Source: Anneissia japonica
Lineage: Eukaryota
NCBI RefSeq assembly: GCF_011630105.1
Contig: NW_022727368.1
Span: forward strand, 169,157-233,156
Reading direction: 5' to 3'
DNA: 64,000 bases
Below are positions 257 through 16,515 of the stretch, piece after piece. The notes under the pieces are model-generated. The model was not told the DNA's origin and did no database searches. It worked only from the letters and a program-made list of their open reading frames with translations. How positions within the stretch are numbered: the stretch's first letter is position 1; each line of letters starts with the position of its first letter. The translations under genes were made by a program, and so were the position numbers.

Positions 257-2586
257 AACCTATAAGGCATCCAATTGTGCTCGCTGTTCAAAGATATAAA
301 TGATGCAAACAAAATCAACAACATATTTACCTGGCACCAACACAATTCCTTTCTCTGTAAATTCAGCTGTATCATACTGCTCGTTTGGATAAAGAATATG
401 AAAGTCATTGTCGTCTGGGTTCTGACGTCGGTCCAGAAAGATTGTGGCAGTGTCATTTCTGACATAGATACTTTCTGTCAGCACCATAAATGTCAAAGAT
501 GGCCTGATTGAAAAAATAGTGTCACCAATGATACTGTAATTGGCAATGTTCAACGTTATTTCTGGTATCCAGAGATAGGAACGTATATCTATAAAATCAC
601 CAATAGAGAAAGTGTTTGGCAGGTCATCATATTCATCATTATTGTACATGTAAGCATAGGCAGTAGTGAACTCTAGCTTGGCAGTGATGTTTGGTACATT
701 AATGTGGCAGATATCAGAGGAGTTGATTGGCCCGTAGAGACGACCAGCAAAGTCTACTACACAGCTGTCATACCAAAGATTTCCCCTTCCAGTGATAATA
801 CTGTTAGCAATAAAATCAACATCATCCCGGAGAGCTAAAGAGAATGTGCCCTGAAAGGAAGCACCTTCAACATTGACTGGTAGGAATCCTAAATGGAAGA
901 ACCCAATGTCATTGTCATAAGTTATTTCACAAAGTGTTGGATCCAAGCATGAAGGACTTGATATAATATCAGCTGGCAGGACCTCTCCACTTCCATTTGA
1001 AATGGTGAAATTAACTGCACCAAGATAAAGACTCAAGTTATATGCTGGAGAGTTGGAAGCGTCAGTGTGTTGGATCTTATAGAAGAACTTTACAAAGTCC
1101 AAACTATCCACAATGTCACTTGGATCTGGCACAATACGCACAAACGTTATCTCTAATTCTGGTTCAACAATCACAAATTCGTCACCAAGTGGTGTGACTG
1201 CCTCATCAATTACTGTTAAATTATAGTCCCAGTTGTCTAGAATGTGCTGGGTTTCATTATCTGGTGGAACAAAGCATTCACATTCAAAACCTTCTTGTGG
1301 AACCATCTCTTCGCATAGAACTGGTTTGATATCAGGAATAATGATGTCTACATCAGAACAATTGCAATATAACACAAATTCATCCCAGTTCACACTTTCC
1401 TGAGGGCTATTTGGATTACAGTATGTTCCGTTGGCAGTGGTAGTAGTTCCGTTGGCATTAGTATTAGTTCCACTGCCAGTGGTATTAGTTCCATATTCAG
1501 AAGTTACATTATGCTCACAGGTAACATCTTGGGTGACACTACTCTGATTTGTATAGGTTCCATTTTTCTGTAATTGGTATCGTTTCAAGGCATCCTGAAT
1601 TGTATAATTCACTGTGAAAACTTTCTCACATGAACAATAGCCATCATTGACTATGTACTCTTTTGAGTATACAACATCTTCACATTCTGTGACATTGAAA
1701 GTGTTGCAGGCATTTGTAACATTGACTGTACATATATCGTGACAGTAACATGGTTTGAAATTTGCATCAGTTACGTTCCCACAATCACACAATGAAGGAT
1801 CACCATGGTAAGTAGATGTGTCTACCACTGACCTCTGGCACTGTATGATAGAGAAATTAGCAACACTGGAAGAAACAGGAAAACTGTGAAAACTACAAGA
1901 GCAGTTTGAATCAACAAATAGATTCTGTGATGAACACTGGCAGAACCAAGTCAAATTCAACATCTGTAGCACATTTACTTCCCAGCATTCTCTTTTGGAA
2001 ACATTCTTACATTCCTCTTGCGTGTTCTTGACAATATGATTGACATTTGGACAAGTGTAGTTTCTAAAGTACATTTCTCTACATCTTGTTAGATAGTCAA
2101 TGTTATCCTGAGAGTTGGCAGTTGAAAATATCTTGTATGAGTCACAATCACATACTGTGTTATCAAATTCTGAGAAATCTTTCACCATTGGTTGATTCAG
2201 GAAATACTGTACATTCTTTTCACAGAAATTAACACAGTCACATGAAGGTGCCCCAAAGTAGCTCTTTTCAGTTTCTTGGAACGTTGATGTGCAGTTACAA
2301 AGATCACTCCGATGGCCGATCAGTGTCATCGTATCACAGGCACAATCCAAAGGATAGAAGTCGTTAAAATATTGAGTAAGAGGCTTAGAACAGGTACAGT
2401 TTTCTTCATACCAAAGAGGTGGTGGTTTTGGTACTGACATGTACATGAATGTAGATGATGTATTGATATATAAAGTCTCATCTCGACTATTCTCCACCTC
2501 ATCAGATATTACCATAGTTACATAAATAGCAACAGAATCACCTCCTAAACCAAAACCTGGAAGATTAACAGCCTGGTATTTTACCC
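257..2586 (-). CDS. Gene A terminal coding exon (~775 codons plus stop). Extracellular region dense in CxC cysteine pairs (CDC, CNC, CSC, CEC, CYC, CTC, CAC, CQC) and about 40 NxS/T sequons.
   Basis: Acceptor tttttag| at 2586. Uninterrupted frame to the stop at 259-257. A minus-strand AATAAA lies at 17-12. A possible internal donor CCAG|gtaaat at 331 leaves the terminal-exon status uncertain. Confidence 0.55.
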
Positions 2587-2855
2587 CTAAAAAATAAAAG
2601 GAAATATATTCTATTATCATTTGAAGTATTAAATGAAAAATATGTTTTACTACAAAATACTATGTTTGGTAACTTCTGTCAGTACAGTATTATAATTATT
2701 ATTATTATAATTATTATTATTATAATTATTATTATTATTATTATTATTTTTATTATCAAACATATTACAGTATAACATAGAAAAATTAAAAACCTGGTAT
2801 TTTATTAAAATATCATTTACTGTAGTTTGTAAAATGAAAATTATATTATTAATAC

Positions 2856-3215
2856 CTGGTTGATAAGGGTTGTGATTGTTTCCACCAACAAAAGTGCAAA
2901 CAACACCATCTCGATTGGTTGTGATTGAAGTATTCACAACCTTTGCCATTCCAAGCTCAACAGTTACTTCTTCGAAACAGAAATCAGGAATACTATAATG
3001 ATCCTCTGCACCTAATTCTGTTGTTGAATTACTTTCAGATGATGATGAATTTTGGGAAGGGGGCTCTGGAGAAGATTCATCTCTATAAGGTTTTGCCAGC
3101 AAAGACTTGTTGGCAAATAGTGTTGAGCAAATCTGATATGGTTTCTGTGACTTATTGTAGTTGCCTTCTAATATACTGGTGAGGTTCAAACCTTCTAAAG
3201 GGTCTTCTAAATCAT
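2856..3215 (-). CDS. Gene A exon (DLEDPLEGLNLTSILEGNYNKSQKPY … GGNNHNPYQP). S-rich and glycosylated.
   Basis: Acceptor tttcag| and donor CCAG|gtatta. 360 nt, phase 1 in and 1 out. ORF 2650..3189. Confidence 0.55.
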
Positions 3216-3580
3216 CTGAAAGAATTATAAGTGCGAGGCAGTGAAGACGAAAATTTGTATTTCATTAACAAAATTTTGATTCTCAGAAAGTGCACACAAG
3301 TGGTTTATTCAAAAAATATATTAATTAGAATAGTTTTTTATCATAGATAAGCAATGTTAATCTCATTACCACAAATTTTAAACTACTGTACTTTTAAATG
3401 TTTTATATTTTTGTATTTTTTAAATGTTATTTTAATTTTAAGGAGACGCTTGTTCGGAATCCTGTCTAATTTTTTTGTGTCATTTTCTTATATTTTATTG
3501 TAAATTATGAGACCAATAAATAAAATTAAATAAGTAATAAAACAAAATAAAATTGAAATACAATATATTTATGCATTTAC

Positions 3581-4558
3581 CATCTTTTTTGGTTTCTTCT
3601 AAACATGCACAAGTCCAATCGCCAATATAATCATCAAGAGGATGTGGAGTATAATTAGGACTATCACTCTGGTTCTTTTGACCAGGAATTCCTGCCCAGT
3701 TGCACTCACTGAAAATAGCACTGTGGCAAAAATTGACAGAGAAATTCTTACAGATTTCTTCATCTGTTGGGACAGTGAAGTTAGTGGAACAATTGGACAA
3801 GTTCCAAGAAATTGATGAGTTCCAAAAAAGCGATGTATTCCAAGGAATCGATGAATTCCAAAATACTGATGACTGGTTGAATGATGTTCCATTGAAATTA
3901 ATTATGCCATTCATCATGTTACTGCTACTGGTCGACACATTGCATGTCATTCCATGGAAGTCTGATGCTGTTTGCAGGTAACTGGTTACATTAGGATTTT
4001 GAAGGCAGAGCTTTTTCGAAGTGTTCTGACATGCTTCATAGACATGTGGAAGAAAATCGCAATCTGTGATCTTGCTTTTCCCCGTGTCTCTATCTGTCAC
4101 ATTAGTACAAAGTTGGTCAGTCTTCAACTGGCAAGAAAACTGCGAGATTATAAAGCTGGCATCAAATGATACATTCTTTTCTCCATAACAAAAACACGGC
4201 CGCATCTCTGCATAACATCCGTTGTCAAAAAAAGTATCTTCAATTGGCAGTACCTCCGGTATGTTTTTCTGGATCTGTTGCACTTCCCATATTTTTCGAG
4301 TTACATTTCGACGTGGGAGGTACATTTCCATTGTGAGGTTGCACGTGATTGGAGGTAGAGGGACCATAAGTCGGTAGGTAAGTTGTTCATTGATGGCAAC
4401 TTCCTTATCAGGTGTATCGGGAAGAGATGTTCCGATAAATTTGAGAGATGCATTTCGGATATTGAGGACATTTTCACTTACGGTTGTGTAAGGATAATAC
4501 CTACCCCAGTGGTAAAAGCTCACCATTTCATATTTCACTTGAGCCTGTAAGCAAATGC
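3581..4558 (-). CDS. Gene A exon (~325 codons). Many NxS/T sequons including repeated WNSS/WNTS motifs, and cysteine-rich.
   Basis: Acceptor cttcacag| at 4558 and donor GATG|gtaaat at 3581. 978 nt = 2+975+1 with no stops. ORF 3495..4538. Confidence 0.55.
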
Positions 4559-4813
4559 CTGTGAAGAAAAATATTAATACAAATCTTAATTATAAAGCCC
4601 TGTCTAGACTATTAAATTTGATTGGACAAAAACATTTGGCATGTTTAAATATGGTCATGATGACATCACATCATCACCATATATAGCCACATCATGACTA
4701 AATATGGGCATACAACAGTTTTTTTTGTCAAAGAATGTTGATAGTGTGGACATGACATCATGTAGGTGATCACTTTTTGGTTTAAAAAAGAAACAAACTT
4801 CTAATGACCTAAC

Positions 4814-5086
4814 CTTCCATTAGCTTGGTAGAAATTTGCACAAGGAATGTGCCTTCAATGACTTCATTCAGGTCTAGTTTATAGATATATAGCTTCAGGA
4901 TCTCATCATTTAGTAGTTTTCCTTGTTCTGACAGTTGATCTCTTAGCGGAATTCTTGAATTTTCATAAGGAAGGAAATGTTTGTAGATCTTCATATAAGG
5001 TAAGAGAATACTGACATTTATATGATGGGCAGCTGATTGTGATACATCTGAATGATTTACTCTTAAGTAGTACTGAAATATTTCAC
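4814..5086 (-). CDS. Gene A exon (EIFQYYLRVNHSDVSQSAAHHINVSILLPYMKIYKHFLPYENSRIPLRDQLSEQGKLLNDEILKLYIYKLDLNEVIEGTFLVQISTKLME).
   Basis: Acceptor tcatcag| and donor GAAG|gttagg. 273 nt, phase 1 in and 1 out. Confidence 0.5.
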
Positions 5087-5547
5087 CTGATGAAAGAGAA
5101 CAAAGATTGTCATTATTTTCTTCATTCTGTAAATTCTGCAGTGTTAACTAATGTATAGACATCTTGAATGGTTTTCACATTGCACGACTGGTAATGACAG
5201 AAGGCAAGGATTATTTGAAAATTACACTGCAAACATTATTAAATATCTGGGCCAGATGCAGGATGCCAGATGTCCGTAGGTGGTACGTATGAGTGGACAC
5301 TACCTCAGCCCCACCATGGTTGGGGCTGAGGCTACGAACATTTTGAGAATATGGTTAAATTCTAGGTGCCTGGAAATTGCACTCTCGTACCTTAAAAATC
5401 TTACCAGTAATTCATATCAACAATAAAAAATAATACAATTATTTTTCTTAATAAAATTTAGGAGGGTGCGATCGCACCGTATGCACCCCCTGCATATGTC
5501 CCAGGATACAAGCCAACCATACAGGTAGTTACGGAGAAACCTCTCAC

Positions 5548-5745
5548 CAGGGTCAGCATCCGTGCTAGCATTGGCCACCTTCAGATGCAAGTGGATATCT
5601 GGTTCAGTTACTGTAATGGTTTGCTGCTGTATCAAATCTTCTCCATTAGTGTATGTTACTACAGTCGTTAATGTATGCTCTGTGTCTTTCACAGCTTCAT
5701 CTTTTTCATCCAGAAGAACAACATTAAACTCGACCACAGTACTGT
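5548..5745 (-). CDS. Gene A exon (STVVEFNVVLLDEKDEAVKDTEHTLTTVVTYTNGEDLIQQQTITVTEPDIHLHLKVANASTDADP).
   Basis: Acceptor ttatag| and donor CCCTG|gtgaga. 198 nt, phase 1 in and 1 out. Part of ORF 5417..5737. Confidence 0.5.
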
Positions 5746-6227
5746 CTATAACAGATATTATAAGTATAGAAGCTAGCTGTTAATCTCGTAATGAATAATT
5801 AATGTTTACATCAGTGCGATTGTTGGTTGGATTCCCCTTTTTGCATGGTGTTTTTTTAATGGAAAAGATTGTACACAATGCTTTCAAAAGGCCACACCTA
5901 AAGATTTCTGTAATTGGGAAGGCATCTTACATCAAGATGTTCAAATGCTTTAAATCGGAGACGTAGCCTGTCCAATCAACTGAGTAAGAACCAAACTACA
6001 AATGAAATTCCCAGTTTTTGATTCTTTGATCATTAGGAAGGAAATGTGTCCTAATGAAATAATCCAAGAGCGTACTAAACGTAGCCTAATAAACATAGCC
6101 TAATAGCTAAATTTAGTAGACTCTAAATGGTAATTGGAAAATGTAATGTCCAAATCCTTAAAGTGACAGTACGCTATTTCTAAAATTTTGTTGTAGAAGA
6201 CATAGACACTGTAAAATAAAAACTTAC

Positions 6228-6314
6228 CATTTTCACTTTGTAGGTTATCAGCTATATTTGTCGCTTCACCTAAATTCATTTTCAGATTTGACCTTGTTGA
6301 CATATCCCATGATA
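6228..6314 (-). CDS. Gene A exon (SWDMSTRSNLKMNLGEATNIADNLQSEN).
   Basis: Acceptor cactgaag| and donor AAATG|gtaagt. 87 nt, phase 1 in and 1 out. Confidence 0.45.
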
Positions 6315-6386
6315 CTTCAGTGGTAAATAAAATAGTAAATCATATAATAAAATATACAGTTGGTAGTCTATGAGTGGAATACTTAC

Positions 6387-6426
6387 CTGTATTCCCACTC
6401 TGGTAATTAGATGGTTTATCAAATTT
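6387..6426 (-). CDS. Gene A 40-nt micro-exon (KFDKPSNYQSGNT). Its donor CAG|gtaagtattccactcatagactaccaac is a fragment of the DIRS-element terminus.
   Basis: Phase 0 in and 1 out joins the flanking exons exactly. The intron to the next exon is 72 nt. Confidence 0.4.
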
Positions 6427-7629
6427 CTTCATTCAGAGCAAAAATAATTTTACTGAATTTGATCAAACATATAGAAGTTGTAAGAGTTGCTTATAACAAA
6501 ACTATAGCTTTTTGTGAGAACAGTTTAAGCTCAGTCACTGTTCTGTTGGTATCAACTGTGTGCGCATTGAAATATGGAGTTCCTTTCATAACTTTTGTTC
6601 TCAGTATAAACTTCATGACTACCCTGTGTTTAAGCTGGAGTTTTAGTTTTTAAAGCCATTAGTCATTTGTGCAATACAGCTGACAGGGGTTGATTCAGAG
6701 AAAAATCTAGGTAGGGGCAATGCTGGATCTAATTAAGGTTTGTTTGAGATTTTTGTTAACCAATGCTTGACTATAGACAAGGTAAATAGAATTTAAATCA
6801 AACAATAGCTTGTTGTGGAGTACCACCCACCCCCACTTTTTCCTTTCTTTTCTTCTCTCATTTTTTTCTGCGGTGGGGGAAACCTGGTCCCTGTGGCCCC
6901 ACTAGATCCACCCCTGGCCCAGGTACATGTTAAAAAAAAAGTGCGCTCACTGAAAAAGAGTCACTGTGTACTCTCTGATCCACCACCCCTCAAAATAGGT
7001 CTTCATGATTTAGAGAGTCTATCATGGTATGTTTCACACAAGAAATCCTATCTTACCTATGTCTTCATCTCCATCTTCAAGATATGCCGAGGTTAGGTTG
7101 ACAATATTGGAACCAATGAATATGATTCTTGAATAGTAGATGGCTAGCACAGGATGTGGCATAATTATATGAAGGTCAATCTGGTAATGGTAGATAATAT
7201 GATAATAAGTTGATATGAGTTATTGGTGCTACACATAAGTAGTATAGAAAGTACTGTATTTACTTATCTATGGTAAACACATTTAAAAAACAAATGGTTA
7301 AAAAATACTTGATTTGAAATTTGTGTACACAAAAAATAGTTCTGTATACTGCAAGGATTCCAAGATTTTAAGATCTGGTTAAATGAGCTTTCTTTCTTAA
7401 ATTTAATTTTTTTTTTGTGGATGGTGATATAGATCGGCATGGACTTCTGCAAAATAGTAAAAACATGCAAACATTATCAATTTGCTGGGAATATGTATTT
7501 TCCTGATGTTACTTGCGGAAGTGAGGGAGGTGTTCCCAATTTCCAGGATACCCCTGTGAGGGACTTGAAACCCCTGCTACTGAACATTTTAATGAGCAAA
7601 GAAAAGAAATACTATACAGTAGCATATAC

Positions 7630-8888
7630 CTGAGAGGTTACTTCTGGCATGGTTATATTGACTATGAATGTTGCATTAGACCCAACAGGCATCAGGTAGT
7701 TTAGAGGTCCAGTATCATCATCATCTACGATATAATCCATGTAATCTTCTACTGTGCCATTCTCTGGAGCAGCAATTGTTGTCATCACATCAATTTCCTT
7801 TTCAACTAAGTCCCTTGCATACAAAGTGTAAACAATGCCAGGTGTCTCTAGAGCTTCACTGGTTCCTGCCAGATATGGAATCACCGTATCCTGTTCCTCC
7901 TTTCTGAAGGACAACCATACCTCACAGATAATTGAGTAATGTGGAGCAATTCCATTATTGACAAGGCGAAACGTCTGCTGGCCTAAAGTGACAACCTCTG
8001 GAGCAAGTTCCGTGAAATGGATATGAAATGTGTGATTGGTAGTTGTCATGATGTCAGCGTTACTATCACTGGTGATGTTCACTGGATGGATGATATCCAG
8101 TTCAAGAGTGATGGGGATAATGACCAAATCAGGGCAGGTCACATTCATCCAGATATCCTTGATAGAGAATTCAAGAACATGAGACAAGTTAAACCCATAT
8201 ATGATGTCATCTTCTGCGTCTGGTACCTGTGTGATGTTCAATGGTGGAATAAGTGGTACAAATGGCTGGGCAGTGACAATTAGAGATCGTGATGAACTAG
8301 CCCAGTACTTTTCTCCCCTTACTGGAAATTTGAAATCCATTTTTACAGAAAATCTAAGTTTATCATCTTTAACTACACTTGACAAAATTCGTGAATTTAA
8401 CGAGATACTAATTGCACGGTCAACGGCACGTCCAGTCTCCACGCAGATGAATGGTGTAAAAGAGAGAGAATACTGGACAATGATATACTCCCCATCCGGG
8501 TCTTGTTCTATCAGCCTCTCAAGGGTTACATCAGGATGTTCTCGGCTTGTTCCGCTGTGATATTTGTCTAATGTATCTATGACTGAGTCTAGGGTGATTT
8601 CATCAGCATCCATGTTATGTGTAGAATTGAACATATCATTAGCAGAGGTTTTTATCAGGTTTCTACCAAGTTTCCACACGGGTGTGACGTTTTCAAATTT
8701 AGCCAAGTACACACCATCAAGTTGTGGAACGTCAAGCGTGATGACCACCCCACGGTTGAATGCTTCAGTGTTGTAGATGACCACCGCATGAGCAATGAGT
8801 TCATGTTTCAGAGCAAATTTAGCCTCAGAAAATGTTGGAATGTTGCGAAACCATATTAAGGCATTTCTAATAGCCACTTCCTGGATAG
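7630..8888 (-). CDS. Gene A large exon (~419 codons, AIQEVAIRNALIWFRN … ITMPEVTSQ). Hydrophilic and N-glycosylation-rich, with few Cys.
   Basis: Acceptor ttttttcag| at 8888 and donor TCTCAG|gtatat at 7630. Length 2+1257 nt with no stops. The first 30 aa of ORF 7612..8976 are intronic read-through of a SINE. Confidence 0.55.
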
Positions 8889-8954
8889 CTGAAAAAAAGT
8901 GTAACTTGATATTATTAAGATCATAACATGACTTACTAACTCTAAAGTTAGTAG

Positions 8955-9235
8955 AAGTGGTTTGGCGCAGTGGCAACGACTTGGTATCCCAACTTTGTGG
9001 TCAGGGTTTTAATCCCTCGCTGTGCATTTCGCTTGTGTTCTAGAGCAAGACACTTTATCTGCATTGCTTCTCTCCACCCTGGAGTACAAGTGGATAGCTA
9101 GTAGGGTTAGAATGCCAAATGCACCGATTAGCTGCTACAACGTTATGGAATAGAGTTTGTGTTTCGTAAGTGTTTAGCCTGTGGTAATAATATGAAGTGC
9201 ATTTGAGACCTTAGCATGATGCACTATATAAATCT
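8955..9235 (+). mobile_element. SINE (head GGTTTGGCGCAGTGGCAACGACTTGGTATCCCAAC…). Second copy at 28505-28735.
   Basis: tRNA-like 5' region and shared body (…gtgcatttcgcttgtgttctagagcaagacactttat…ctccaccc.ggagtacaagtgg…). Confidence 0.5.
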
Positions 9236-11088
9236 ACATTTAATGTAGTAATACTACTGTATTAATAAAGCGTTTATGCACATAAAAAAAATGTTCAACA
9301 TGGTGCATTTTTGGCCGTTAACAGAACTGGTCCATGGCACCCGGCTTTTGGAAAAACTCGGGTTATAAATCCTGCTGGTTTGTTGATTAGCGATGGGTTC
9401 TTTAAATTATTTATTGCCACTGAAGCCCATGAGATGAACTGAGTGATTGTAATGGGTTTCTTGTTTACATTCCAATGGCTATATGTTGCTGGCCAGGACT
9501 CTCTTGTTAACTCCCAATGGACATTCTTAAAACCAATTAAAGTTAAGTTTATGGAGCTGCTAACAGCTCCCTCTGGACCATTTGACAGCTCACTCTCAAC
9601 TATAAGACAGCTCACTATGGACCATTTCTGCTAACGGGGACTTTTGCCTCATGATATACAGTAATTACCAACTGCCTGGGTTGTTTGATTGAATGGCTTG
9701 GTGCTTTGTGTAATATTGGCTGTAACAGTTGATACTAGAATTTGGCTAACTTCAACATAGTTTAATAATTTACCTGAAAAGAGAAGGTACAAATGAAAGA
9801 AAAAATTGCATCTATACAATGGTAAGATTATTACCACGAAGCATTATTATTGCTATAAAGATGGTACCAGGATTATAGCAGTTTCTTACCAAAAATGGTA
9901 CATTGTATACAAATGTATGCGGCATATAATAACTAACTGTATTATAAGTCGCTACAAATGTTTTTTTCCTACCCAGGCCTAGCCTACATCGATTCGTAAG
10001 CATAGATGAAATCATCAGTGCGTGGTGGTGGTTTTTAGTTGGTGTCTGCACCAACTAAATATGTGATTACTGTATCCTTCCAAATGCTTGAAGATATTTT
10101 AATTTCTTTGATAAATGTCGCTCAAAATAGTAAACTCATGACTAAATTCTTCAAATACAATAAAATATTTATTCTTCGTACTGATGTGTAAATTGTACAG
10201 TACATACCATTTGAACTGCACTGCTGTGCTAGCGCGTACTACAGCAGCAATCCACACGCACAGCTAAATGTACCGTAATACGCGCACAGATATAATAAAT
10301 ATATCACTATAGCTACCAATGACTACAACAGTTTCATTATGAAACTAACTTTAAACAGATGGCGATTTACTTACAAAGCAATTAGAACAGTGCTTATGTA
10401 TACGCTAGAGGAAATTATTATAATCAGTTTAGATTAACACATTCAAAAAATTCCTTTCTTTTTTTTTTCTTTTATTAATCTAACATGAGTATATTAATTT
10501 CCACTAGTGTATGATATGCCACTATTCTAATTACTTATTACATCATAGTTGGTTGATAATACCATTACCAAATAATTAATAATGGTCTGGTAGTACAATG
10601 TCATAGTTCTATTCCTTATTTACCCAGGGTGTTCTATTCAGTGTGATAAAATTCTGTTTTGCCACAAGGCCCAGGCAGTGATGGCGCCAGGAATTTTTCG
10701 ACAAGGGGTCCAAACCATGAGGCAAACAAGAGCCTCGGTTGAGGTCCTGGAATAACAAATCCCTGTTAGGGTTTACGGGTAGAGTTCTTACGTCTTATTC
10801 TTATGGTCCAAATTGTGCTTTTAGACTGATTGGCAATTAAAATAATTTTGAATATGCAAGTTATATCTTTAATTTTTAATCCAACAAGCTCGTCGTAGCG
10901 TGGTAGCAAATGCCCCGCTGACCCGACAGCGCCACCACTGGGCCCAGGAGCAACTTGCCAAATTACTTCATGGTTGGTCCATGTGCAGTGCAAACCGAGT
11001 CCAAAAATTATGTGTATTTAAAAGACAACAATATCTTTTTTTATAAAAATATTTTCTGTAAATAAGATTTCAAAGAAGGTTTTGATAC

Positions 11089-11355
11089 CAGAGAACTTGA
11101 CAGAAATGTTGAAGTCCTTCCAATCAATTGGTTCAGGAGGGGGGTAATAAAATCCAGTAGTGTTGACATTTAAGCAGTACTTGGCACTGAAGAACTTATC
11201 TGTCTTGGGTAGAGCTTTGAATGGGTTGTGAGTTGGTGCTGGAGTTGTAATGATAGGCTTGATCCTCATAATAACACGGGTACAACCATCTTCGTCTTCC
11301 TCCTTAATGGTCACGTCATATGTATATTGGCGACCATTTACAGTCTCTTCTGCCA
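11089..11355 (-). CDS. Gene A exon (AEETVNGRQYTYDVTIKEEDEDGCTRVIMRIKPIITTPAPTHNPFKALPKTDKFFSAKYCLNVNTTGFYYPPPEPIDWKDFNISVKFS).
   Basis: Acceptor gatttag| and donor TCTG|gtatca. 267 nt, phase 1 in and 1 out. Lies within ORF 11018..11392. Confidence 0.5.
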
Positions 11356-12015
11356 CTAAATCAAAATTAATATCACAGTGAATATATACCAAATTTATTC
11401 AATAAACGTGAGCGTAAACCAACAATACGCCCTTATATGCACCTAGGAGAGGACGCCTGCTGTGTTAAAGGTGCACGTATTATGTATAAAGGTGCACGTA
11501 TTATGTATACTCTTGGATTACTTAAATTTGTAAGGGTTTTTTCTTGTTTTTGCAGATGGATGGCAGTATAATAATAGCAGTCAATGTTAATAAAATAATA
11601 AAACTTTCAATATACATGGTGCACACGAAAGTGTAATTACTTTATTATTAAGGAGGCTTCACAAGCTTACGAAAACGATAATGATTGTGGTTACATCATA
11701 ATTTTTGTAGTGAATCCATCCCACAGCATATATGTCACAAAATAGACGCCTTGACTTTTAAATGAATCAACGATAATATTCAGCTTGTATATGTATTGTT
11801 AATGATGTGTTAAGCACATTATTGCACGTTATTGTTTTTAAAAGGTTGCAAAATCTCCATATTATTGATACTCGCCATGCAAACATTCAAAATGTAATCA
11901 ATGTGTTAAACAATACACAAAGATTTAATGGCTTGACAAAAATAAATGTAAAAAAGACAGATATAAATGAAAAAAAAAGTTAGTGTCATTAAAAAAAGTG
12001 ACATACACCAGATAC

Positions 12016-12330
12016 TCTCCATTGTCATGCCACAGAAATCTTTCTCGTATGTCTCAGGAATTGGAGCAGAGGTTGGTACACTGAAGTCATATTGAGTGAA
12101 GAATATTCCACGATCGTTGATTTGGATGCAATCAGTTTCGTTAATATCTGTCGGACACAACATATTTTGAGGTTGTTCTGCAGCATTAAGCAGCTCCTCC
12201 AGGCAGGCTGTTGTGTTGACATGGTAACACTCTGAGGTCACATTCCATGGTAGGCAGGATGATACTGGGAACCGATAGCAGTACTCTGGGTCCCATGTTT
12301 GGTCTGGTGACCGATCATAGAACACACAAT
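12016..12330 (-). CDS. Gene A exon (CVFYDRSPDQTWDPEYCYRFPVSSCLPWNVTSECYHVNTTACLEELLNAAEQPQNMLCPTDINETDCIQINDRGIFFTQYDFSVPTSAPIPETYEKDFCGMTME).
   Basis: Acceptor tcctacag| at 12330. The donor was chosen by phase (GAGA|gtatct). An alternative donor 7 nt downstream (TCTG|gtgtat) would break phase. Part of the 11906..12325 ORF track. Confidence 0.45.
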
Positions 12331-13055
12331 CTGTAGGAACATTAAGGAATTTAATAAATACAATATAATCAATAAATAATAGCAGTACCCTTTTTAAGAG
12401 GATATGTTCTGGAACAAAGAGTGTCCCCTTAATATAAGGGTGTCATGGCCGAAATCTATTGTAATAGTAATATAAGCAATAAGTATGTGTATCGTACATG
12501 TGTGGAAAATAAGTTGGAACAAAATATGAAGACATTATTCTGCTGGTTTAAAATAATTATTTAAAAATTGAGTTTTTACCATAATATAATCCTAAAGAAA
12601 TTATAAAACAAGTGATGTGCAAGTGGTAGAAAACCAACTAAGCAGTGCATGTCATATCTATAAATATCGTCAAATTTTAATCATTTACGTCCAGACTATC
12701 AAATTTTATTTGACAAAAACATGTGACATGCCTAAAAATGGTGATGATGACATCACATCATTACCATATATAGGCACATCATGACCATATATAGGCACAT
12801 CATGACTATATATGGGCATACAACAGTTTTGTGATAGTTTGGAGAGAGCTTTAGATTTCAGAAGTTTGAGGCCTTTTATTACAAAGACATGTATCAAGCA
12901 GCATAGGAAAGACCCTTATAATTTAAATTTCCAAGTCACTTTGTCACCTGCATTAGTATAGTGGCGTTGACATTTGTTGCTACTGACAATGATGACAACA
13001 ATAATGATGATGATGATGATGATGATGAAAATGTGGGAAAATAAACATTACTAAC

Positions 13056-13163
13056 CGGAATGCAAAGCATCATAGCAATACGGATATGAAGGGCGCCACC
13101 AACAGTCAGGTTTTTTCCAAGGCTCAGTCAAGTTGATCCACATAAGCTCAGAGATATCAATTC
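13056..13163 (-). CDS. Gene A exon (…IDISELMWINLTEPWKKPDCWWRPSYPYCYDALHS…). Cysteine-rich.
   Basis: Acceptor cctag| and donor CCG|gttag. Phase 1 in and 1 out, matching the next exon. Confidence 0.45.
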
Positions 13164-14226
13164 CTAGGTACAGCTGTTTATTTTTTTTTAAATTAATTAA
13201 TATATATTGGTATTGACATCATTGTTCATTGGAAGGATTACCAAAGAAAGACAAATGCTGATACTACAGAATGGTAGAAGTTGTTCCAATTTAGGATAAT
13301 AAGGAACAACAAGCATATATTCTTTCCTTTCTGTAAAATGATCACCAGCTGTTCTAAGGCTCCAGGGTTCTAATGGGTCCTTGATTGTTTTCATCATTTT
13401 CATGAGAGTACAAAACATACTCTTTTTGCTGAACCCCTCTCCCCACCCCCTGAAAGAGTACATGATAAAATGATGATTTTTTTTTTCCAGTGTTTAGTGG
13501 TTCAAAGCTTACACTAGCAGTGTGCAGTACATGATGAAACATTGTGGGATTTATATTGCGCAGATCTCTATACACTCTTTAAAATAAATTCATGCTATAT
13601 AGGTCTAAAGGTAAACTTTGGCCATTTAGGTGAATGGCTAGGCACAAAAACGTAGGCTACACTTAAATATAGTCATTTTTTTACTATTTCAAAAGCATAC
13701 ACACGCCGCCAACCCCTCCCCCAGCGTACATTTTGCGACTATGATGAATTAAATGGATGACTCCTGAAGGCCAAATAGTTATTGCTAATAAATAAATTTA
13801 AATTTCATTATAAAAAGCCAAATTGAAAAAGATTTCAATCTCTGCTTTGTTCTAGCATGTATCTTCCTAAGCTTAACCTCGTTATTCTTAAAACAAACTT
13901 TAGTCTACTAGCACCACGACTAAAGCATGCGAACCTCCACTAAAATTATACCCCTCAGACCGATTTTTTAGTCAGCCTAGGGTCAGGCTAAATTGCTGAC
14001 TTGAAATATTTACTCCAATAAACGTGCTATTTTGTAACTTTCGATGAAGTGAAACGAATATAAATGATTGTATAAATAGGTCCGATGTATCTCCAGTGTG
14101 TTCAAGAAAAGGGACATTATGTTTAGCTTCCAAAAGGCGAAATTGCTTAAATGGGGCATGTAGACAAATGCGGCTCTCACATAGGTACAGGTACTGAAAT
14201 AAAACAAATAATCACAAATAAACTAC

Positions 14227-14373
14227 CTTTTCATCAACTGGATCATGGTCTATGTACAGAATCTTCACTTCTTCAGTAATGTTGGTCTGGTTCCCCACAT
14301 TGACGTCAAGAGCATAGCTCTGAAGAGTGATGTCCAAGGTATCTTGGTCAAATGTACTGCATGGAAGATCCAC
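14227..14373 (-). CDS. Gene A exon 4 (VDLPCSTFDQDTLDITLQSYALDVNVGNQTNITEEVKILYIDHDPVDEK).
   Basis: Acceptor ttttag| and donor AAG|gtag. 147 nt, phase 0 in and 0 out. At least one further exon must lie between 13164 and 14226 to restore phase, and I could not resolve it. Confidence 0.5.
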
Positions 14374-15114
14374 CTAAAATGGATAATGAAGACAAATTAT
14401 TTACGGGAGCAGATGTCCAAAAGGTTGGACATAATTAAAGTTAAAGGTATGAAAAGCCAGTGTAAATGCCAAATAAGTCATTCTTAGAATTATCTTAGAT
14501 AATGTTTTTAGCTGTTCAACACCCGCAAGCTAGTTACTGTAGTTTGTTTTAAACTACTTTATGTAAATGCTGTACCAAGCACACAGGGCAGTTTAAAGGC
14601 TAGCTAGCCATTTGTTATTTTCTAATAACGATGCTTTGTACTGTACTGGCACATTGGGATAGGCACAGCCTTTGGTAAGCTTTTTACTTAGGCTATTTCT
14701 ATTTTCCTGTTAATGAATATCTCTATAGGCTTTGCAGTATTAGCCCGACATACAAAAATCGTCTAAAACCTTCTCAAATTTAGGGGTCCTCTACACAGAT
14801 TACCTTATACACGAGAATTACGTTATTGTATAATGCAAATTTGATTTCAGGAGAACTCGAACAACAGGACTGGATTGAAGGGCTGTGGGGCCTGGGGCTG
14901 TAATTACAAGTGGGCCTAAATACTCTGTGACTAAAACATAAAACCAGATTTTCTGTGATTTTTTTCCTGGGGTTCGGGGCCTATTTTTCCCCATTGGGAC
15001 CGATAAGCCTGGGACTGGCGCCCCAATATCCCCTATGTTAATTTGGCCCTGACAATAATGTTAGCATCTATAGCAACAACAAAAAAAATACAAATGACAA
15101 GAAACAATTTATAC

Positions 15115-15240
15115 CTCAAAGGATACGTTGATTGCTGTATGTTCTGGTTCTACCTTGTAGCGTAGCACCCAAGCATGTTCTAGTACACTACCTGCATCGA
15201 CCTTTTTAGGATATGTGTCGCCTGATATCACATAATCCAA
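15115..15240 (-). CDS. Gene A exon 3 (LDYVISGDTYPKKVDAGSVLEHAWVLRYKVEPEHTAINVSFE).
   Basis: Acceptor ctattag| and donor GAG|gtata. 126 nt, phase 0 in and 0 out. Confidence 0.5.
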
Positions 15241-15898
15241 CTAATAGAAAACAGATAGAAATATAAACGTTAAAATATTGATAAATGAATAGTTTATTTT
15301 ACTATAAATAATTATTTACTGTAAGTATATTTTAGTTGTAAAATTTCACTAAATGTCTCATTAGATACATCATCATGCAAAAAAATCAGAAATTCAAAAC
15401 AAATTTAAAAACCAATTCCAAAAATTGTTAAAAATAGCTTTTAATTAAATAACTTAGCGCTGAAGATGTGGCTTGGACAAAAAAATAAAAAACATAACGA
15501 AAGCATGAAGCAAACTAATAAATAAAACTTGTAGTGCATATTACATCATCAACTGAATATCAGCATATTCAGTCAAGTTTGTCAATACTTAACCATTTAT
15601 GTTGCCATTAATCACTGCTCAGATATAGCAGTGTTTGTTTGGCCAGAGCACCAAGCTAAGTCAAGAATGGTCAATTTCAAATTATAGTAAGCATTACCAG
15701 CCAAATTAAAAGAATTACTGCTTGGAATTTGCGACATGAAAAAATGGTGTAGTTATACACGTTTGTCTGGAGCATCCAAGCTGTTCTGTATTCTACTATT
15801 GCTCCCATAAGCCAACTGAGAATGCCAAGCAAAAATTAATGATCGATAAAACAATTTTTTTGTTTGGTTTTCAATTTTTCTGAATTTATTTGCATTAC

Positions 15899-15993
15899 CT
15901 GTACTTCGGGAATTTCTTCCACCCAAACTTCTTCAGAACTCCGTGTTTTTCTACTTAAGACGCCATTTTCTTCCTCAGTAATATTCATTCCCC
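15899..15993 (-). CDS. Gene A exon 2 (…GGMNITEEENGVLSRKTRSSEEVWVEEIPEVQ).
   Basis: Acceptor ttttcag| and donor CAG|gtaat on the minus strand. Phase is consistent with exon 1 and there are no stops. Confidence 0.5.
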
Positions 15994-16445
15994 CTGAAAA
16001 ATGGAGAATAAATATTAGTATTAGTATATATTTTTATCTCTATTACTATTTTTGTAAACCCTTTTTTTTATTTATATTTCATTCTACCGCAGTATTTTCT
16101 TACTATATTTTATCACAGTAATTAAGTTTTTACTGATTTTGTTATTGTTGCACATCTTTACGGCTGTGCCTCTGTTATAAAAGAGAAGCAATAAAGTTAC
16201 TTACTAGAATCATTGTTTATCAATAATTCAATACACTCAATTGGTTCCCAAAGATGTTGAGTATAAAATCCAAACAAGAAAACAGAAAAGCCCAAAAGAC
16301 CATGTGAAAGCTTGACTTTGAGCCAAGACTCGATCGATCACCAGCAATCACTTCACATTTCAACAGTAATATAAGTAGGCCTACTGTCATTCAAATAGAA
16401 ATAAATGCAGAAAATACAAGACAATTTAATATAATTTGAATTTAC

Positions 16446-16515
16446 CATTGTTAGAAGAAAAATACACTGCACCAATAGTTAATAGCCCAGCAACAGCAAC
16501 CACAGCAATCCCCAT
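16446..16515 (-). CDS. Gene A first coding exon. ATG at 16515-16513 with an in-frame TGA just upstream. Encodes MGIAVVAVAGLLTIGAVYFSSNN (signal peptide or signal-anchor). Donor AATG|gtaaat.
   Basis: Reverse-strand translation read by eye. The hydrophobic 20-aa stretch directly follows Met. Canonical donor, and phase 1 continues into the next exon. Confidence 0.55.

What the first reader, a model, noticed from the sequence alone, without database searches (positions are those of the whole stretch)
257..16515. Large orphan CxC-repeat, heavily N-glycosylated, signal-anchor protein (Gene A)
Fifteen or more phase-consistent exons encode over 2000 residues. There is an N-terminal hydrophobic anchor, a 419-codon hydrophilic exon and a 775-codon terminal exon packed with CxC pairs and about 40 NxS/T sequons. 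I cannot assign it to a known family from sequence alone. The ~10-residue spacing of the CxC pairs and the repeated WNSS/WNTS motifs may define a new cysteine-rich ectodomain.
Basis: seen in the sequence. Interest (0 to 1): 0.5.

Follow-up and report, generated by a model that had tools for sequence, protein, structure and literature searches.

The report
Giant adhesin-like secreted glycoprotein gene
This is the first 55% of a real 4,133-residue secreted glycoprotein gene of the feather star Anneissia japonica, conserved in echinoderms and acorn worms; it combines very divergent copies of the domain pair that forms bacterial adhesin stalks with a cysteine-rich region that has no detectable relative outside this gene family.

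Summary
The gene is real but runs off the window. A 16-exon minus-strand model (16515..331, 2,262 aa) is 100% identical to the N-terminal 55% of RefSeq LOC117113693 (Anneissia japonica, 4,133 aa, "uncharacterized"). The "terminal exon" ends at a GT donor at 331/330, not at a stop.

It is not an orphan. Collinear orthologs exist in another crinoid, two sea stars and a hemichordate, and fragments come from two more echinoderm lineages.

Curated models (Pfam, NCBIfam) and PDB sequence searches find nothing. Profile methods show at least five ~300-aa two-domain units, about three of them in the window. These are homologous to the repeat unit of bacterial fibrillar adhesins: a TIGR04226-type domain plus DUF11/"CLIPPER". 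The same unit is tandemly repeated in giant choanoflagellate and apusomonad proteins.
- HHalign probability is 98.8%.
- All eukaryotic copies lack the Lys-Asp-Asn isopeptide triad.

The CxC region (~390 aa, window 2413..1247) is genuine. Across seven lineages 22 Cys and 8 CxC pairs are invariant at ~25% overall identity. It is non-repetitive, matches nothing else in 1.84 billion proteins, and could not be modelled. The WNSS/WNTS motif is an 18-nt tandem repeat in a non-conserved linker.

Function is inferred: a secreted, disulfide- and glycan-stabilised extracellular stalk or matrix protein.

The parts
331..16515 (-). In-window part of the gene: 16 exons encoding residues 1-2262 of a 4,133-aa protein. 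Exons (high..low): 16515-16446, 15993-15899, 15240-15115, 14373-14227, 13173-13056, 12330-12007, 11355-11089, 9773-9669, 8888-7630, 7180-7057, 6314-6228, 5745-5548, 5086-4814, 4558-3581, 3215-2856, 2586-331. The gene continues beyond window position 1.
   Evidence: Splice model. It is 100% identical over 100% coverage to RefSeq P0004. tblastn of orthologs hits only minus-strand 314-15240.
16459..16515 (-). Start codon and N-terminal hydrophobic segment (MGIAVVAVAGLLTIGAVYF). Probably a signal peptide; a signal anchor is not excluded.
   Evidence: It is the only segment with Kyte-Doolittle mean >1.6 over 19 residues, and the same holds in all orthologs.
11090..13173 (-). Conserved N-terminal Cys-rich region (residues 147-382; exons 5-7). 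No family assigned.
   Evidence: Many invariant Cys, Trp and Pro columns in alignment A1. No Pfam or PDB match.
7630..8888 (-). 420-codon exon (residues 418-837). Its C-terminal part (residues 569-837, window 8436-7630) is adhesin-type unit 1.
   Evidence: Exon boundaries. Iterative profile match to the unit, E 1e-19.
4182..7180 (-). Adhesin-type unit 2 (residues 838-1190; exons 10-14). It has a TIGR04226-like half ('...NIADN...EFNVVLLD...TVTEP') and a DUF11/CLIPPER-like half (residues 945-1090, window 5635-4482).
3001..4181 (-). Non-conserved Cys-, Asn-, Ser- and Thr-rich linker (residues 1191-1462), including the WNSS/WNTS run.
   Evidence: Indel-rich and unalignable between orthologs.
3802..3872 (-). 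18-nt tandem repeat, 3.4-3.9 copies, encoding FWNSSI/PWNTSL/FWNSSI/SWNLSN.
   Evidence: Tandem Repeats Finder. Absent from orthologs.
2414..3000 (-). Conserved beta-rich segment before the CxC region (residues 1463-1568, '...GGNNHNP.QPGV.Y...VTMVISD...'). By eye it resembles the C-terminal part of the TIGR04226-like half.
   Evidence: Conservation in A2. The resemblance was seen in the sequence only and was not tested separately.
1247..2413 (-). CxC cysteine-framework region (residues 1569-1957). It holds 12 CxC pairs in Anneissia; 8 CxC pairs and 22 Cys are invariant in seven lineages. Two invariant sequons overlap CxC (ENCTC, CNCT).
   Evidence: No homolog outside the orthologs. No repeat structure and no similarity to the unit. 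AF2 pLDDT 21-46, not modelled.
1420..1492 (-). 21-nt tandem repeat, 3.4 copies, encoding the TNTTGSGTNTNANGTTTTANGT run inside a variable loop of the CxC region.
   Evidence: Variable in orthologs.
545..1207 (-). Adhesin-type unit 3 (residues 1971-2191), with a DUF11/CLIPPER-like copy at residues 1978-2130 (window 1186-728; 'VIVEPELEITF...FYKIQHTDASNSPAYNL').
   Evidence: This segment (profile positions 486-584) carries the matches to Salpingoeca, Thecamonas and bacterial DUF11 proteins in the 1.84-billion-protein search.
331..358 (-). Last in-window codons (start of unit 4), ending at the phase-1 donor CCAG|GTAAAT. The intron runs off the window.
   Evidence: Orthologs continue with 'PGV.VN.ADN...'.

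Best explanation
Gene A is the 5' 55% of Anneissia japonica LOC117113693. It encodes a 4,133-aa protein that enters the secretory pathway through an N-terminal signal sequence and has no other hydrophobic segment.

SHOWN
- The polypeptide is a mosaic. At least five ~300-aa two-domain beta-sandwich units are homologous to the repeat unit of bacterial and archaeal fibrillar-adhesin stalks (a TIGR04226-type domain followed by a DUF11/CLIPPER CnaA-like domain).
- The same unit is tandemly repeated 8-15 times in giant proteins of a choanoflagellate and an apusomonad.
- Between and within these units lie lineage-specific Cys-rich segments and sequon-rich, repeat-prone linkers.
- All eukaryotic copies lack the Lys-Asp-Asn triad that cross-links the bacterial domains.
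- The CxC region is a ~390-aa, non-repetitive cysteine framework. It sits between a conserved beta-rich segment and the next DUF11-like domain, and it is restricted to the ambulacrarian orthologs.

INFERRED
- The protein is secreted, or possibly N-terminally tethered.
- It forms an extended, mechanically robust, heavily N-glycosylated stalk or fibre in the extracellular space (surface coat or matrix).
- Disulfides and glycans take over the stabilising role that isopeptide bonds play in bacteria.
- The CxC region is a disulfide-bonded globular or spacer module, possibly the binding part.
For: GENE MODEL AND IDENTITY
- Splice model and identity to RefSeq.
- One gene: collinear alignment with four orthologs over the whole length.
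- Secretory entry: a single N-terminal hydrophobic segment in all orthologs, plus 3.2-fold sequon enrichment with nine invariant sequons in residues 1463-2419.

UNIT HOMOLOGY
- An animal-only profile (A2), searched against 1.84e9 proteins, hits Salpingoeca (E 4.5e-22), Thecamonas and bacterial-type giants (E 1e-7 to 3e-4), only at profile positions 486-584 and 775-867.
- In the bacterial hits these segments are Pfam DUF11/TIGR01451, preceded by TIGR04226.
- HHalign, animal-only versus bacterial-only DUF11 halves: 98.75%, E 1.4e-16. Animal versus protist: 98.76%.
- Other half of the unit: animal versus bacterial 90%, animal versus protist 96%, protist versus bacterial 99%.
- An AF2 model of residues 838-1190, built without bacterial sequences or templates, has pLDDT 70-90 in the DUF11-like half.

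TRIAD
- K-D-N is present in 14 of 14 bacterial-type copies, 0 of 13 animal copies and 0 of 10 protist copies. Triad positions follow 9IFR and PMC12617251.

CxC REGION
- 22 invariant Cys and 8 invariant CxC pairs in seven lineages at 25% identity.
- An even number (28) of invariant Cys in the five named orthologs.
Against: - No experimental or expression data were available, so location and function are inferred from architecture alone.
- Curated DUF11, TIGR01451 and TIGR04226 models do not detect any animal copy, even at E<=1.
- The relation of the TIGR04226-like half rests on only 71 aligned columns.
- The CxC region could not be folded (pLDDT 21-46), so 'disulfide-bonded module' is an inference from Cys conservation.
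- No C-terminal anchor, transmembrane segment or known matrix-assembly domain was detected, so how or whether the protein is retained at a surface is unknown.
- The unit AF2 model is only moderately confident overall (mean pLDDT 64).
- The local iterative searches used a tiny database, so their E-values are not library-wide.
Confidence: 0.6

Rival explanations
1. It is a type II (signal-anchored) cell-surface adhesion receptor. The N-terminal hydrophobic segment would stay in the membrane and the whole 4,100-residue ectodomain would project from the cell.
For: The hydrophobic run in Anneissia is 17-19 residues and starts at residue 2-3, with no obvious small-x-small cleavage site. No other anchor exists. 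Bacterial and protist relatives are cell-surface proteins (PMC12617251; bioRxiv 10.1101/2024.01.29.577165).
Against: There is no cytoplasmic tail and no positive charge before the hydrophobic run in Anneissia. In the orthologs the hydrophobic cores are 12-15 residues followed by small residues (Acanthaster MTGVVLVLLLVNVAG|F; Asterias ...FLCLTLG|D), which is typical of cleaved signal peptides. No predictor could be run.
Confidence: 0.2
2. The CxC region is a metal-binding (metallothionein-like or biomineral-associated) module rather than a disulfide framework.
For: CxC is a classic metal-chelating motif (general knowledge). The region has 30-36 Cys, and echinoderms biomineralise.
Against: The protein is routed to the oxidising secretory pathway. 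Invariant N-glycosylation sequons overlap the CxC motifs (ENCTC, CNCT). The number of invariant Cys is even, 28 in five orthologs. The gene is also present in a non-biomineralising hemichordate. Cys density (~9%) is far below that of metallothioneins.
Confidence: 0.05
3. The adhesin-type units are not anciently eukaryotic but came by horizontal transfer from bacteria, or the apparent homology is convergence of generic Ig-like beta-sandwiches.
For: DUF11 and TIGR04226 are overwhelmingly bacterial and archaeal. A 2025 survey regarded eukaryotic isopeptide-domain hits as probable contamination (PMC12617251). No other named animal protein was found with these units. The fold also resembles integrin legs and alpha-2-macroglobulin domains.
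Against: Contamination is excluded for this gene: it has 15 spliceosomal introns and is conserved and collinear in at least five ambulacrarian genomes. Sequence-level profile matches (E 1e-16, including the shared VEPxL...GD..Y...H...S.A motif) go beyond fold convergence. There is a graded similarity from bacteria to protists to animals. The protist and animal copies also share loss of the triad, which fits vertical descent from a unicellular ancestor. An old transfer cannot be excluded.
Confidence: 0.15
4. The long model is an annotation chimera of two or more adjacent genes.
For: The ortholog models differ in length (2,433 to 5,175 aa). Some lack exons or carry a duplicated segment. No transcript data were available.
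Against: All junctions are phase-compatible with no stop over 16 exons. Order and content are the same in five species' independent models. There is no second signal peptide and no internal start context, and adhesin units are split across exon boundaries.
Confidence: 0.05

Closest known systems
Bacterial and archaeal fibrillar adhesins built from CLIPPER (DUF11, PF01345/TIGR01451) and TIGR04226-type isopeptide domains (structure 9IFR; PMC12617251)
   Different: The Lys-Asp-Asn triad is absent in all animal copies. Curated HMMs do not detect them. The units are few (about five) and interrupted by Cys-rich inserts rather than in long uninterrupted tandem arrays. The gene has introns, the protein carries N-glycosylation sequons, and no sortase, T9SS or other bacterial sorting signal is present.
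Giant repeat proteins of unicellular relatives: Salpingoeca rosetta PTSG_13117 (5,131 aa) and Thecamonas trahens AMSG_09866 (4,923 aa)
   Same: The same unit, likewise without the isopeptide triad. They are the best non-ortholog hits of the animal profile. Each has an N-terminal signal-like hydrophobic segment.
   Different: The protist proteins are long tandem arrays (14-15 and 8-10 units) with few Cys (0.5% in Thecamonas). They have no CxC region, and their copies are still faintly visible to Pfam DUF11 (14.8-22.7 bits).
GhpA 'grappling hook' protein of Aureispira (PDB 9FLP; bioRxiv 10.1101/2024.01.29.577165)
   Same: Best solved-structure sequence hit of the bridging profile (E 3e-27). It is a ~600-kDa secreted fibre of Ig-like domains, reported to be stabilised by disulfides and glycans rather than described isopeptides. 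This makes it a functional analogy for a disulfide- and glycan-stabilised stalk.
   Different: The hit is driven by the bacterial rows of the profile and lies in GhpA's N-terminal hook module. GhpA is a T9SS substrate that heptamerises. There is no evidence of oligomerisation here and no CxC region in GhpA.
Integrin alpha-subunit leg domains (thigh, calf-1, calf-2) and alpha-2-macroglobulin/complement MG/RBD domains
   Different: Structural resemblance only, at 6-12% identity. There is no sequence-profile link, no beta-propeller, no thioester, and no partner subunit.
Cysteine-framework extracellular modules that contain CxC (EGF and laminin-EGF signatures)
   Same: CxC pairs in a secreted, glycosylated context. 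Outside the window the protein has one EGF-like insert ('CVCYSGF', seen in the sequence).
   Different: The CxC region has no EGF or other Pfam match, no periodic Cys pattern and no internal repeat. Its spacings are irregular, 13-90 residues.

Membership tests
DUF11 / CLIPPER domain (Pfam PF01345, TIGR01451) | Match to the curated family HMM at or above its gathering score | tested here: not met
   0 of 11 animal copies match, even at E<=1. Full-length P0004 has no Pfam or NCBIfam hit. Protist copies score 14.8-22.7 bits against a cutoff of 24.6.
DUF11 / CLIPPER domain (Pfam PF01345, TIGR01451) | Demonstrable homology to verified DUF11 domains | tested here: met
   The animal-only profile hits DUF11-bearing proteins in a 1.84e9-protein library at E 1e-7 to 3e-4, exactly on their DUF11 segments. 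HHalign of animal-only versus bacterial-only copies gives 98.75%, E 1.4e-16 over 123 columns.
DUF11 / CLIPPER domain (Pfam PF01345, TIGR01451) | CnaA-like Ig-type Greek-key beta-sandwich fold | tested here: met
DUF11 / CLIPPER domain (Pfam PF01345, TIGR01451) | Lys-Asp-Asn intramolecular isopeptide triad (present in many but not all family members, PMC12617251) | tested here: not met
   K-D-N is present in 14 of 14 bacterial-type copies, 0 of 13 animal and 0 of 10 protist copies. The animal residues at these positions are L/F/V/Y, I/L/V/W and A/G/T/S/N.
DUF11 / CLIPPER domain (Pfam PF01345, TIGR01451) | Occurs repeatedly in the middle of long secreted surface proteins with a signal peptide | tested here: met
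   Five copies in the 4,133-aa protein (one of them weak), behind an N-terminal signal-like segment.
TIGR04226 isopeptide-forming fimbrial-protein domain (CnaB-type) | HMM match or homology to the domain that precedes DUF11 in bacterial units | tested here: inconclusive
   No NCBIfam hit on P0004. HHalign of animal versus bacterial gives 90%, E 1.6e-6, but over only the C-terminal 71 columns. Transitive support comes through the protists (96% and 99%). Isopeptide residues of this half were not examined.
Type II signal-anchor membrane protein | Uncleaved N-terminal transmembrane helix of about 20 or more residues with a positively charged cytoplasmic flank | not testable with these tools
   Only a hydropathy scan was possible. 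The run is 17-19 residues in Anneissia with no preceding charge; orthologs have 12-15 residue cores. No SignalP or TMHMM was available.
EGF-like / laminin-EGF cysteine-rich repeats | Six- or eight-Cys module with the CxCxxG[FYW] signature, repeated | tested here: not met
   No EGF-family Pfam hit in any exon or in P0004. The CxC region shows no internal repeat (HHalign 0.2-0.4%).
Orphan (taxonomically restricted, single-species) gene | No homolog in other species | tested here: not met
   Orthologs in Antedon, Asterias, Acanthaster and Ptychodera, plus two unnamed echinoderm-like fragments.

The most novel reading that the evidence does not exclude
Two linked claims.

1. The stalk unit of bacterial fibrillar adhesins (TIGR04226-type + CLIPPER/DUF11) is a native, vertically inherited building block of eukaryotic giant surface proteins, found in apusomonads, choanoflagellates and ambulacrarian deuterostomes. 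It would have lost the isopeptide triad early. In the animal lineage its stabilisation would have been taken over by disulfides and N-glycans. This would answer, in a qualified way, the open question of whether these domains exist in eukaryotes.

2. The ~390-aa CxC region is a previously undescribed disulfide-framework domain, specific to Ambulacraria, inserted into such a unit.
Probability: 0.4. Interest if true: 0.6.

Novelty: new variant of a known kind. Interest (0 to 1): 0.45.

Why it matters
Standard annotation leaves this 4,133-residue, deeply conserved deuterostome protein completely blank.

- **Domain origin.** Its scaffold derives from the CLIPPER/DUF11 adhesin-stalk unit. That gives a bona fide animal example, with introns and conserved across a superphylum, of a domain family so far treated as prokaryotic. 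The eukaryotic occurrences of that family were recently dismissed as contamination (PMC12617251).
- **Natural experiment.** All eukaryotic copies lack the isopeptide triad while the animal protein is Cys- and sequon-rich. This lets one ask how mechanical stability of extracellular stalks is achieved without isopeptide bonds.
- **Evolution.** Presence in a choanoflagellate and an apusomonad, but apparently in no other named animals, bears on which surface-protein modules were inherited from unicellular ancestors and then lost in most animal lineages.
- **The CxC region.** It is a concrete candidate for a new cysteine-framework domain.

No function is known, and the gene itself is already in RefSeq, so the practical impact is modest until expression or structural data exist.

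Tried and rejected
- **Pfam on exons and full-length proteins.** Scans of all large exons and of the full-length orthologs gave nothing real. The Lyase_8_C, DUF3915 and pXO2-34 hits were far below cutoff.
- **PDB sequence searches.** Animal-only profiles A2 and A1 gave nothing at E<=1.
- **AF2 of residues 1463-2419 with five sequences.** Mean pLDDT was 35 and the CxC part was unusable, so no fold search was run on that model.
- **Internal BLAST self-comparison of P0004.** No repeats at E<=1. The units are too divergent for BLAST and were only found by iterative profiles.
- **Exact look-up of P0004 for genomic context.** Not on record.
- **Literature search** for the five locus names: no paper.
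- **Pfam on distant giants P0016, P0022 and P0032.** Only spurious low-complexity hits, or none.
- **Third named-database search** with a eukaryote-only unit profile (A5). It returned nothing, not even the query's own source proteins, so it is uninformative about other animals.
- **AFDB50 fold library.** Unavailable.
- **Rejected: the CxC region as a degenerate copy of the adhesin unit or as a tandem repeat.** HHalign probability 0.1-0.4%.
- **Rejected: WNSS/WNTS as a domain signature.** It is an 18-nt tandem repeat, absent from orthologs.
- **Rejected: contamination.** The gene has introns and is conserved in five genomes.
- **Rejected: open stretch 9630..9298 as an exon**.

Full report
**1. 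The observation**

The coding sequence is on the minus strand. Stop-to-stop open stretches and a simple splice-site score gave a 16-exon model from the ATG at 16515 to a donor at 331. All introns are GT-AG and there is no in-frame stop. Of the 15 introns that lie wholly inside the window, 11 are phase 1 and 4 are phase 0.

The model encodes 2,262 residues. It later proved 100% identical, over 100% of its length, to RefSeq 'uncharacterized protein LOC117113693' of the feather star Anneissia japonica, which is 4,133 aa (P0004). The window therefore comes from that crinoid and carries only the N-terminal 55% of the protein.

All orthologs continue there with 'PG|V.VN.ADN...'.

tblastn of the orthologs onto the whole window hits only minus-strand 314-15240. 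An attractive open stretch at 9630..9298 is not part of the gene.

**2.

- The last in-window exon has 12 CxC, against 2.2 +/- 1.4 in 1000 shuffles (maximum 7), and 28 sequons against 9.7 +/- 2.7.
- The whole in-window protein has 80 NxS/T, against 25.4 +/- 4.5 (maximum 38).
- The enrichments are therefore real. The numbers 'about 40 sequons' and '~10-residue spacing' are not: spacings are 13-90 residues with a median of about 28.
- The WNSS/WNTS run lies in exon 14, not the last exon. It is an 18-nt tandem repeat (3802-3872) inside a linker that cannot be aligned between orthologs.
- A 21-nt repeat (1420-1492) likewise encodes the 'TNTNANGTTT' run.
- The only hydrophobic segment is the N-terminus, in every ortholog.

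**3. Not an orphan**

A word-indexed search of 5.8 billion proteins found orthologs in Antedon mediterranea (66% identity), Asterias rubens and the hemichordate Ptychodera flava. A profile search then added Anneissia itself and Acanthaster planci, which is 5,175 aa. All are 'uncharacterized', and none has a Pfam domain.

The alignment is collinear over the whole 2,262 residues.

Two unnamed fragments (P0007 and P0008; 796 and 734 aa) cover the CxC exon. They are ~45% identical to the sea-star proteins and ~35% identical to the crinoid and hemichordate proteins, so at least two further echinoderm-like lineages carry it.

**4. What most of the protein is made of**

An animal-only profile of residues 1463-2419 (A2) was searched with HMMER against 1.84 billion cluster representatives. 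Two results matter.

1. The CxC part (profile positions ~50-480) was matched only by orthologs and their fragments.
2. More than 20 giant proteins matched only two short segments, positions 486-584 and 775-867, usually many times each. They include Salpingoeca rosetta PTSG_13117 (E 4.5e-22) and Thecamonas trahens AMSG_09866.

In the bacterial-type hits, the matched segment coincides with Pfam DUF11/TIGR01451 and is preceded by TIGR04226, the 'isopeptide-forming domain-containing fimbrial protein'. This is the same order as '...ADN...EF.V.L...VVEPxL | GD..Y...H...S.A.N' in Gene A.

Local iterative profiles show a ~300-aa two-domain unit repeated as follows:

| Protein | Copies of the unit |
|---|---|
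| Salpingoeca | 14-15 |
| Thecamonas | 8-10 |
| Bacterial-type proteins | 5-8 |
| P0004 | at least 5 |

The P0004 units lie at residues 569-837, 838-1190, 1971-2191, 2254-2338 + 2408-2627 (split by an EGF-like insert) and 2838-3042. The first three are in the window.

**5. Tests of that assignment**

- *Sequence.* HHalign of animal-only against bacterial-only DUF11-like halves gives 98.75% (E 1.4e-16, 123 columns). Animal against protist gives 98.76%.
- *Other half of the unit.* Animal against bacterial gives 90% (E 1.6e-6, 71 columns). Animal against protist gives 96%. Protist against bacterial gives 99% over 152 columns.
- *Solved structures by sequence.* A bridging profile (A3, 42 copies) hits GhpA, the grappling-hook fibre of Aureispira (9FLP, E 3e-27), and the CLIPPER crystal structure 9IFR (E 0.007). 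That profile is dominated by bacterial rows.
- *Fold.* AF2 was run on residues 838-1190 with an alignment of animal and Thecamonas units only, and no templates. It gave mean pLDDT 64, with 70-90 in the DUF11-like half, all-beta.
  - Foldseek gives integrin alpha legs as the best multi-domain matches. The best single-domain matches are 9IFR (TM 0.69) and the alpha-2-macroglobulin receptor-binding domain.
- *Curated models.* Pfam DUF11 detects 0 of 11 animal copies even at E<=1. It gives 14.8-22.7 bits (cutoff 24.6) for 3 of 10 protist copies, and recognises 18 of the 42 copies overall. NCBIfam sees nothing in P0004 and gives sub-threshold TIGR01451 in Thecamonas.

There is thus a similarity gradient from bacteria to protists to animals. 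This explains why the gene looks like an orphan to standard annotation.

**6. The isopeptide triad**

DUF11 was recently renamed CLIPPER and shown to carry a Lys-Asp-Asn intramolecular isopeptide (9IFR: Lys715/Asp748/Asn806). [quoted passage not shown] The same survey judged eukaryotic hits to be probable contamination (PMC12617251).

Reading the three columns in A3 gives K-D-N in 14 of 14 bacterial-type copies, 0 of 13 animal copies and 0 of 10 protist copies.

The eukaryotic domains therefore belong to the family by descent and fold but cannot form that bond. Contamination is excluded here by 15 spliceosomal introns and conservation in five ambulacrarian genomes.

**7. The CxC region itself (residues 1569-1957; window 2413..1247)**

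- It lies between a conserved beta-rich segment (1463-1568) and the 'VIVEPELEITF' strand of the next DUF11-like domain.
- In seven lineages, 22 Cys are invariant, 29 are present in at least 6 of 7, and 8 CxC pairs are invariant.
- Crinoid-hemichordate identity in this region is only 25%, and 29 of the 79 identical positions are Cys.
- In the five named orthologs, 28 Cys are invariant, an even number.
- Two invariant sequons overlap CxC motifs (ENCTC, CNCT).
- HHalign finds no similarity to the adhesin unit (0.1-0.2%) and no internal repeat (0.2-0.4%).
- No Pfam, PDB or library-wide relative exists.
- AF2 could not model it (pLDDT 21-46).

It is therefore a conserved cysteine framework on a fast-evolving background. 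This is typical of a disulfide-bonded extracellular module, but its fold is unknown.

**8. Mechanism**

*Shown:*
- secretory entry signal;
- extreme sequon enrichment, with conserved sites;
- a scaffold of adhesin-stalk-type beta-sandwich pairs without the isopeptide triad;
- lineage-specific Cys-rich inserts.

*Inferred:*
- The mature protein is an extended, glycan-coated extracellular stalk or fibre, either in the matrix or as a surface coat.
- Disulfides and glycans supply the robustness that isopeptides give in bacteria. GhpA, a bacterial fibre reported to rely on disulfides and glycans, is a useful analogy.
- The CxC region is a globular or spacer module, possibly the binding part.

The hydrophobic N-terminus looks more like a cleaved signal peptide than an anchor. 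This is judged by eye, from short cores, the absence of a cytoplasmic tail, and small residues after the core in the orthologs.

Expression, localisation and binding partners are unknown.

**9. Comparison and novelty**

The gene is already in RefSeq, but nothing is known about it and no paper mentions it or its orthologs.

It works like, and descends from, the CLIPPER/TIGR04226 adhesin-stalk unit. It fails two membership criteria: the curated HMM score and the isopeptide triad. I therefore file it as a divergent eukaryotic variant, not as a standard member.

The labels 'orphan', 'repeat', 'terminal exon' and 'WNSS motif' do not survive.

I rate it a new variant of a known kind, with moderate interest.

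Noticed in passing
window 52562-54326 (+), GC-rich block ~52-54 kb: Overlapping frame-shifted ORFs. The first matches Pfam RVT_1 (reverse transcriptase, E 2.5e-8, YLDD motif). GC is 0.51 against ~0.35 elsewhere in the window. This is probably a decayed retroelement.
   Followed up: partly
window 13173-11090 (-), protein residues 147-382: A second strongly conserved Cys-, Trp- and Pro-rich region ('NLTEPWK.PDCWW...CIQINDRG.FFT.Y') has no Pfam or PDB match. It was not included in the deep library search, so it is another unassigned domain of the same protein.
   Followed up: partly
window 12709-12915 and 4658-4819 (-), introns 5 and 13: The same short repeat family occurs in two different introns of the gene (21-nt tandem units; translated 'CCMPI[YF]SHDV.IYG.DVMSS'). 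It is likely an interspersed minisatellite-bearing element.
   Followed up: no
window 2688-2756, intron 15: A (TAT)23 microsatellite creates a long Asn/Tyr-rich open frame (2650-3189) that looks coding but is intronic beyond the donor at 2856.
   Followed up: partly
P0004 residues 2263-4133 (outside the window): The downstream half contains two further adhesin-type units, one of them split by an EGF-like insert (CVCYSGF). It also has a ~1,000-residue very Cys-rich region with irregular short Cys spacings and several dibasic sites (RQRR, RKRR, RIRR). The C-terminus is conserved and carries an Asp-box-like 'SFDYGSSW' motif. None of these has a Pfam hit.
   Followed up: no
ortholog models P0001, P0002, P0003: The public gene models are uneven. 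Antedon lacks the signal-peptide exons and the equivalents of exons 10-11. Asterias carries a duplicated 29-residue segment ('LVQEATVHVWEPEMILMYNLTNETLAGDP' twice). Asterias and Ptychodera stop at ~2,500 aa, whereas Anneissia and Acanthaster continue to 4,133 and 5,175 aa. These are probably annotation or assembly artefacts.
   Followed up: no
P0013, P0006, P0022, P0023, P0032 (distant hits): The choanoflagellate and apusomonad giants also lack the Lys-Asp-Asn triad in every DUF11-like copy examined, as do several unnamed metagenomic proteins that resemble them. Isopeptide-less CLIPPER arrays may be a general eukaryotic feature.
   Followed up: partly
window 1-64000: No tRNA genes and no Rfam family at gathering threshold anywhere in the window. 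No ortholog-supported exon of this gene lies beyond 16515.
   Followed up: yes
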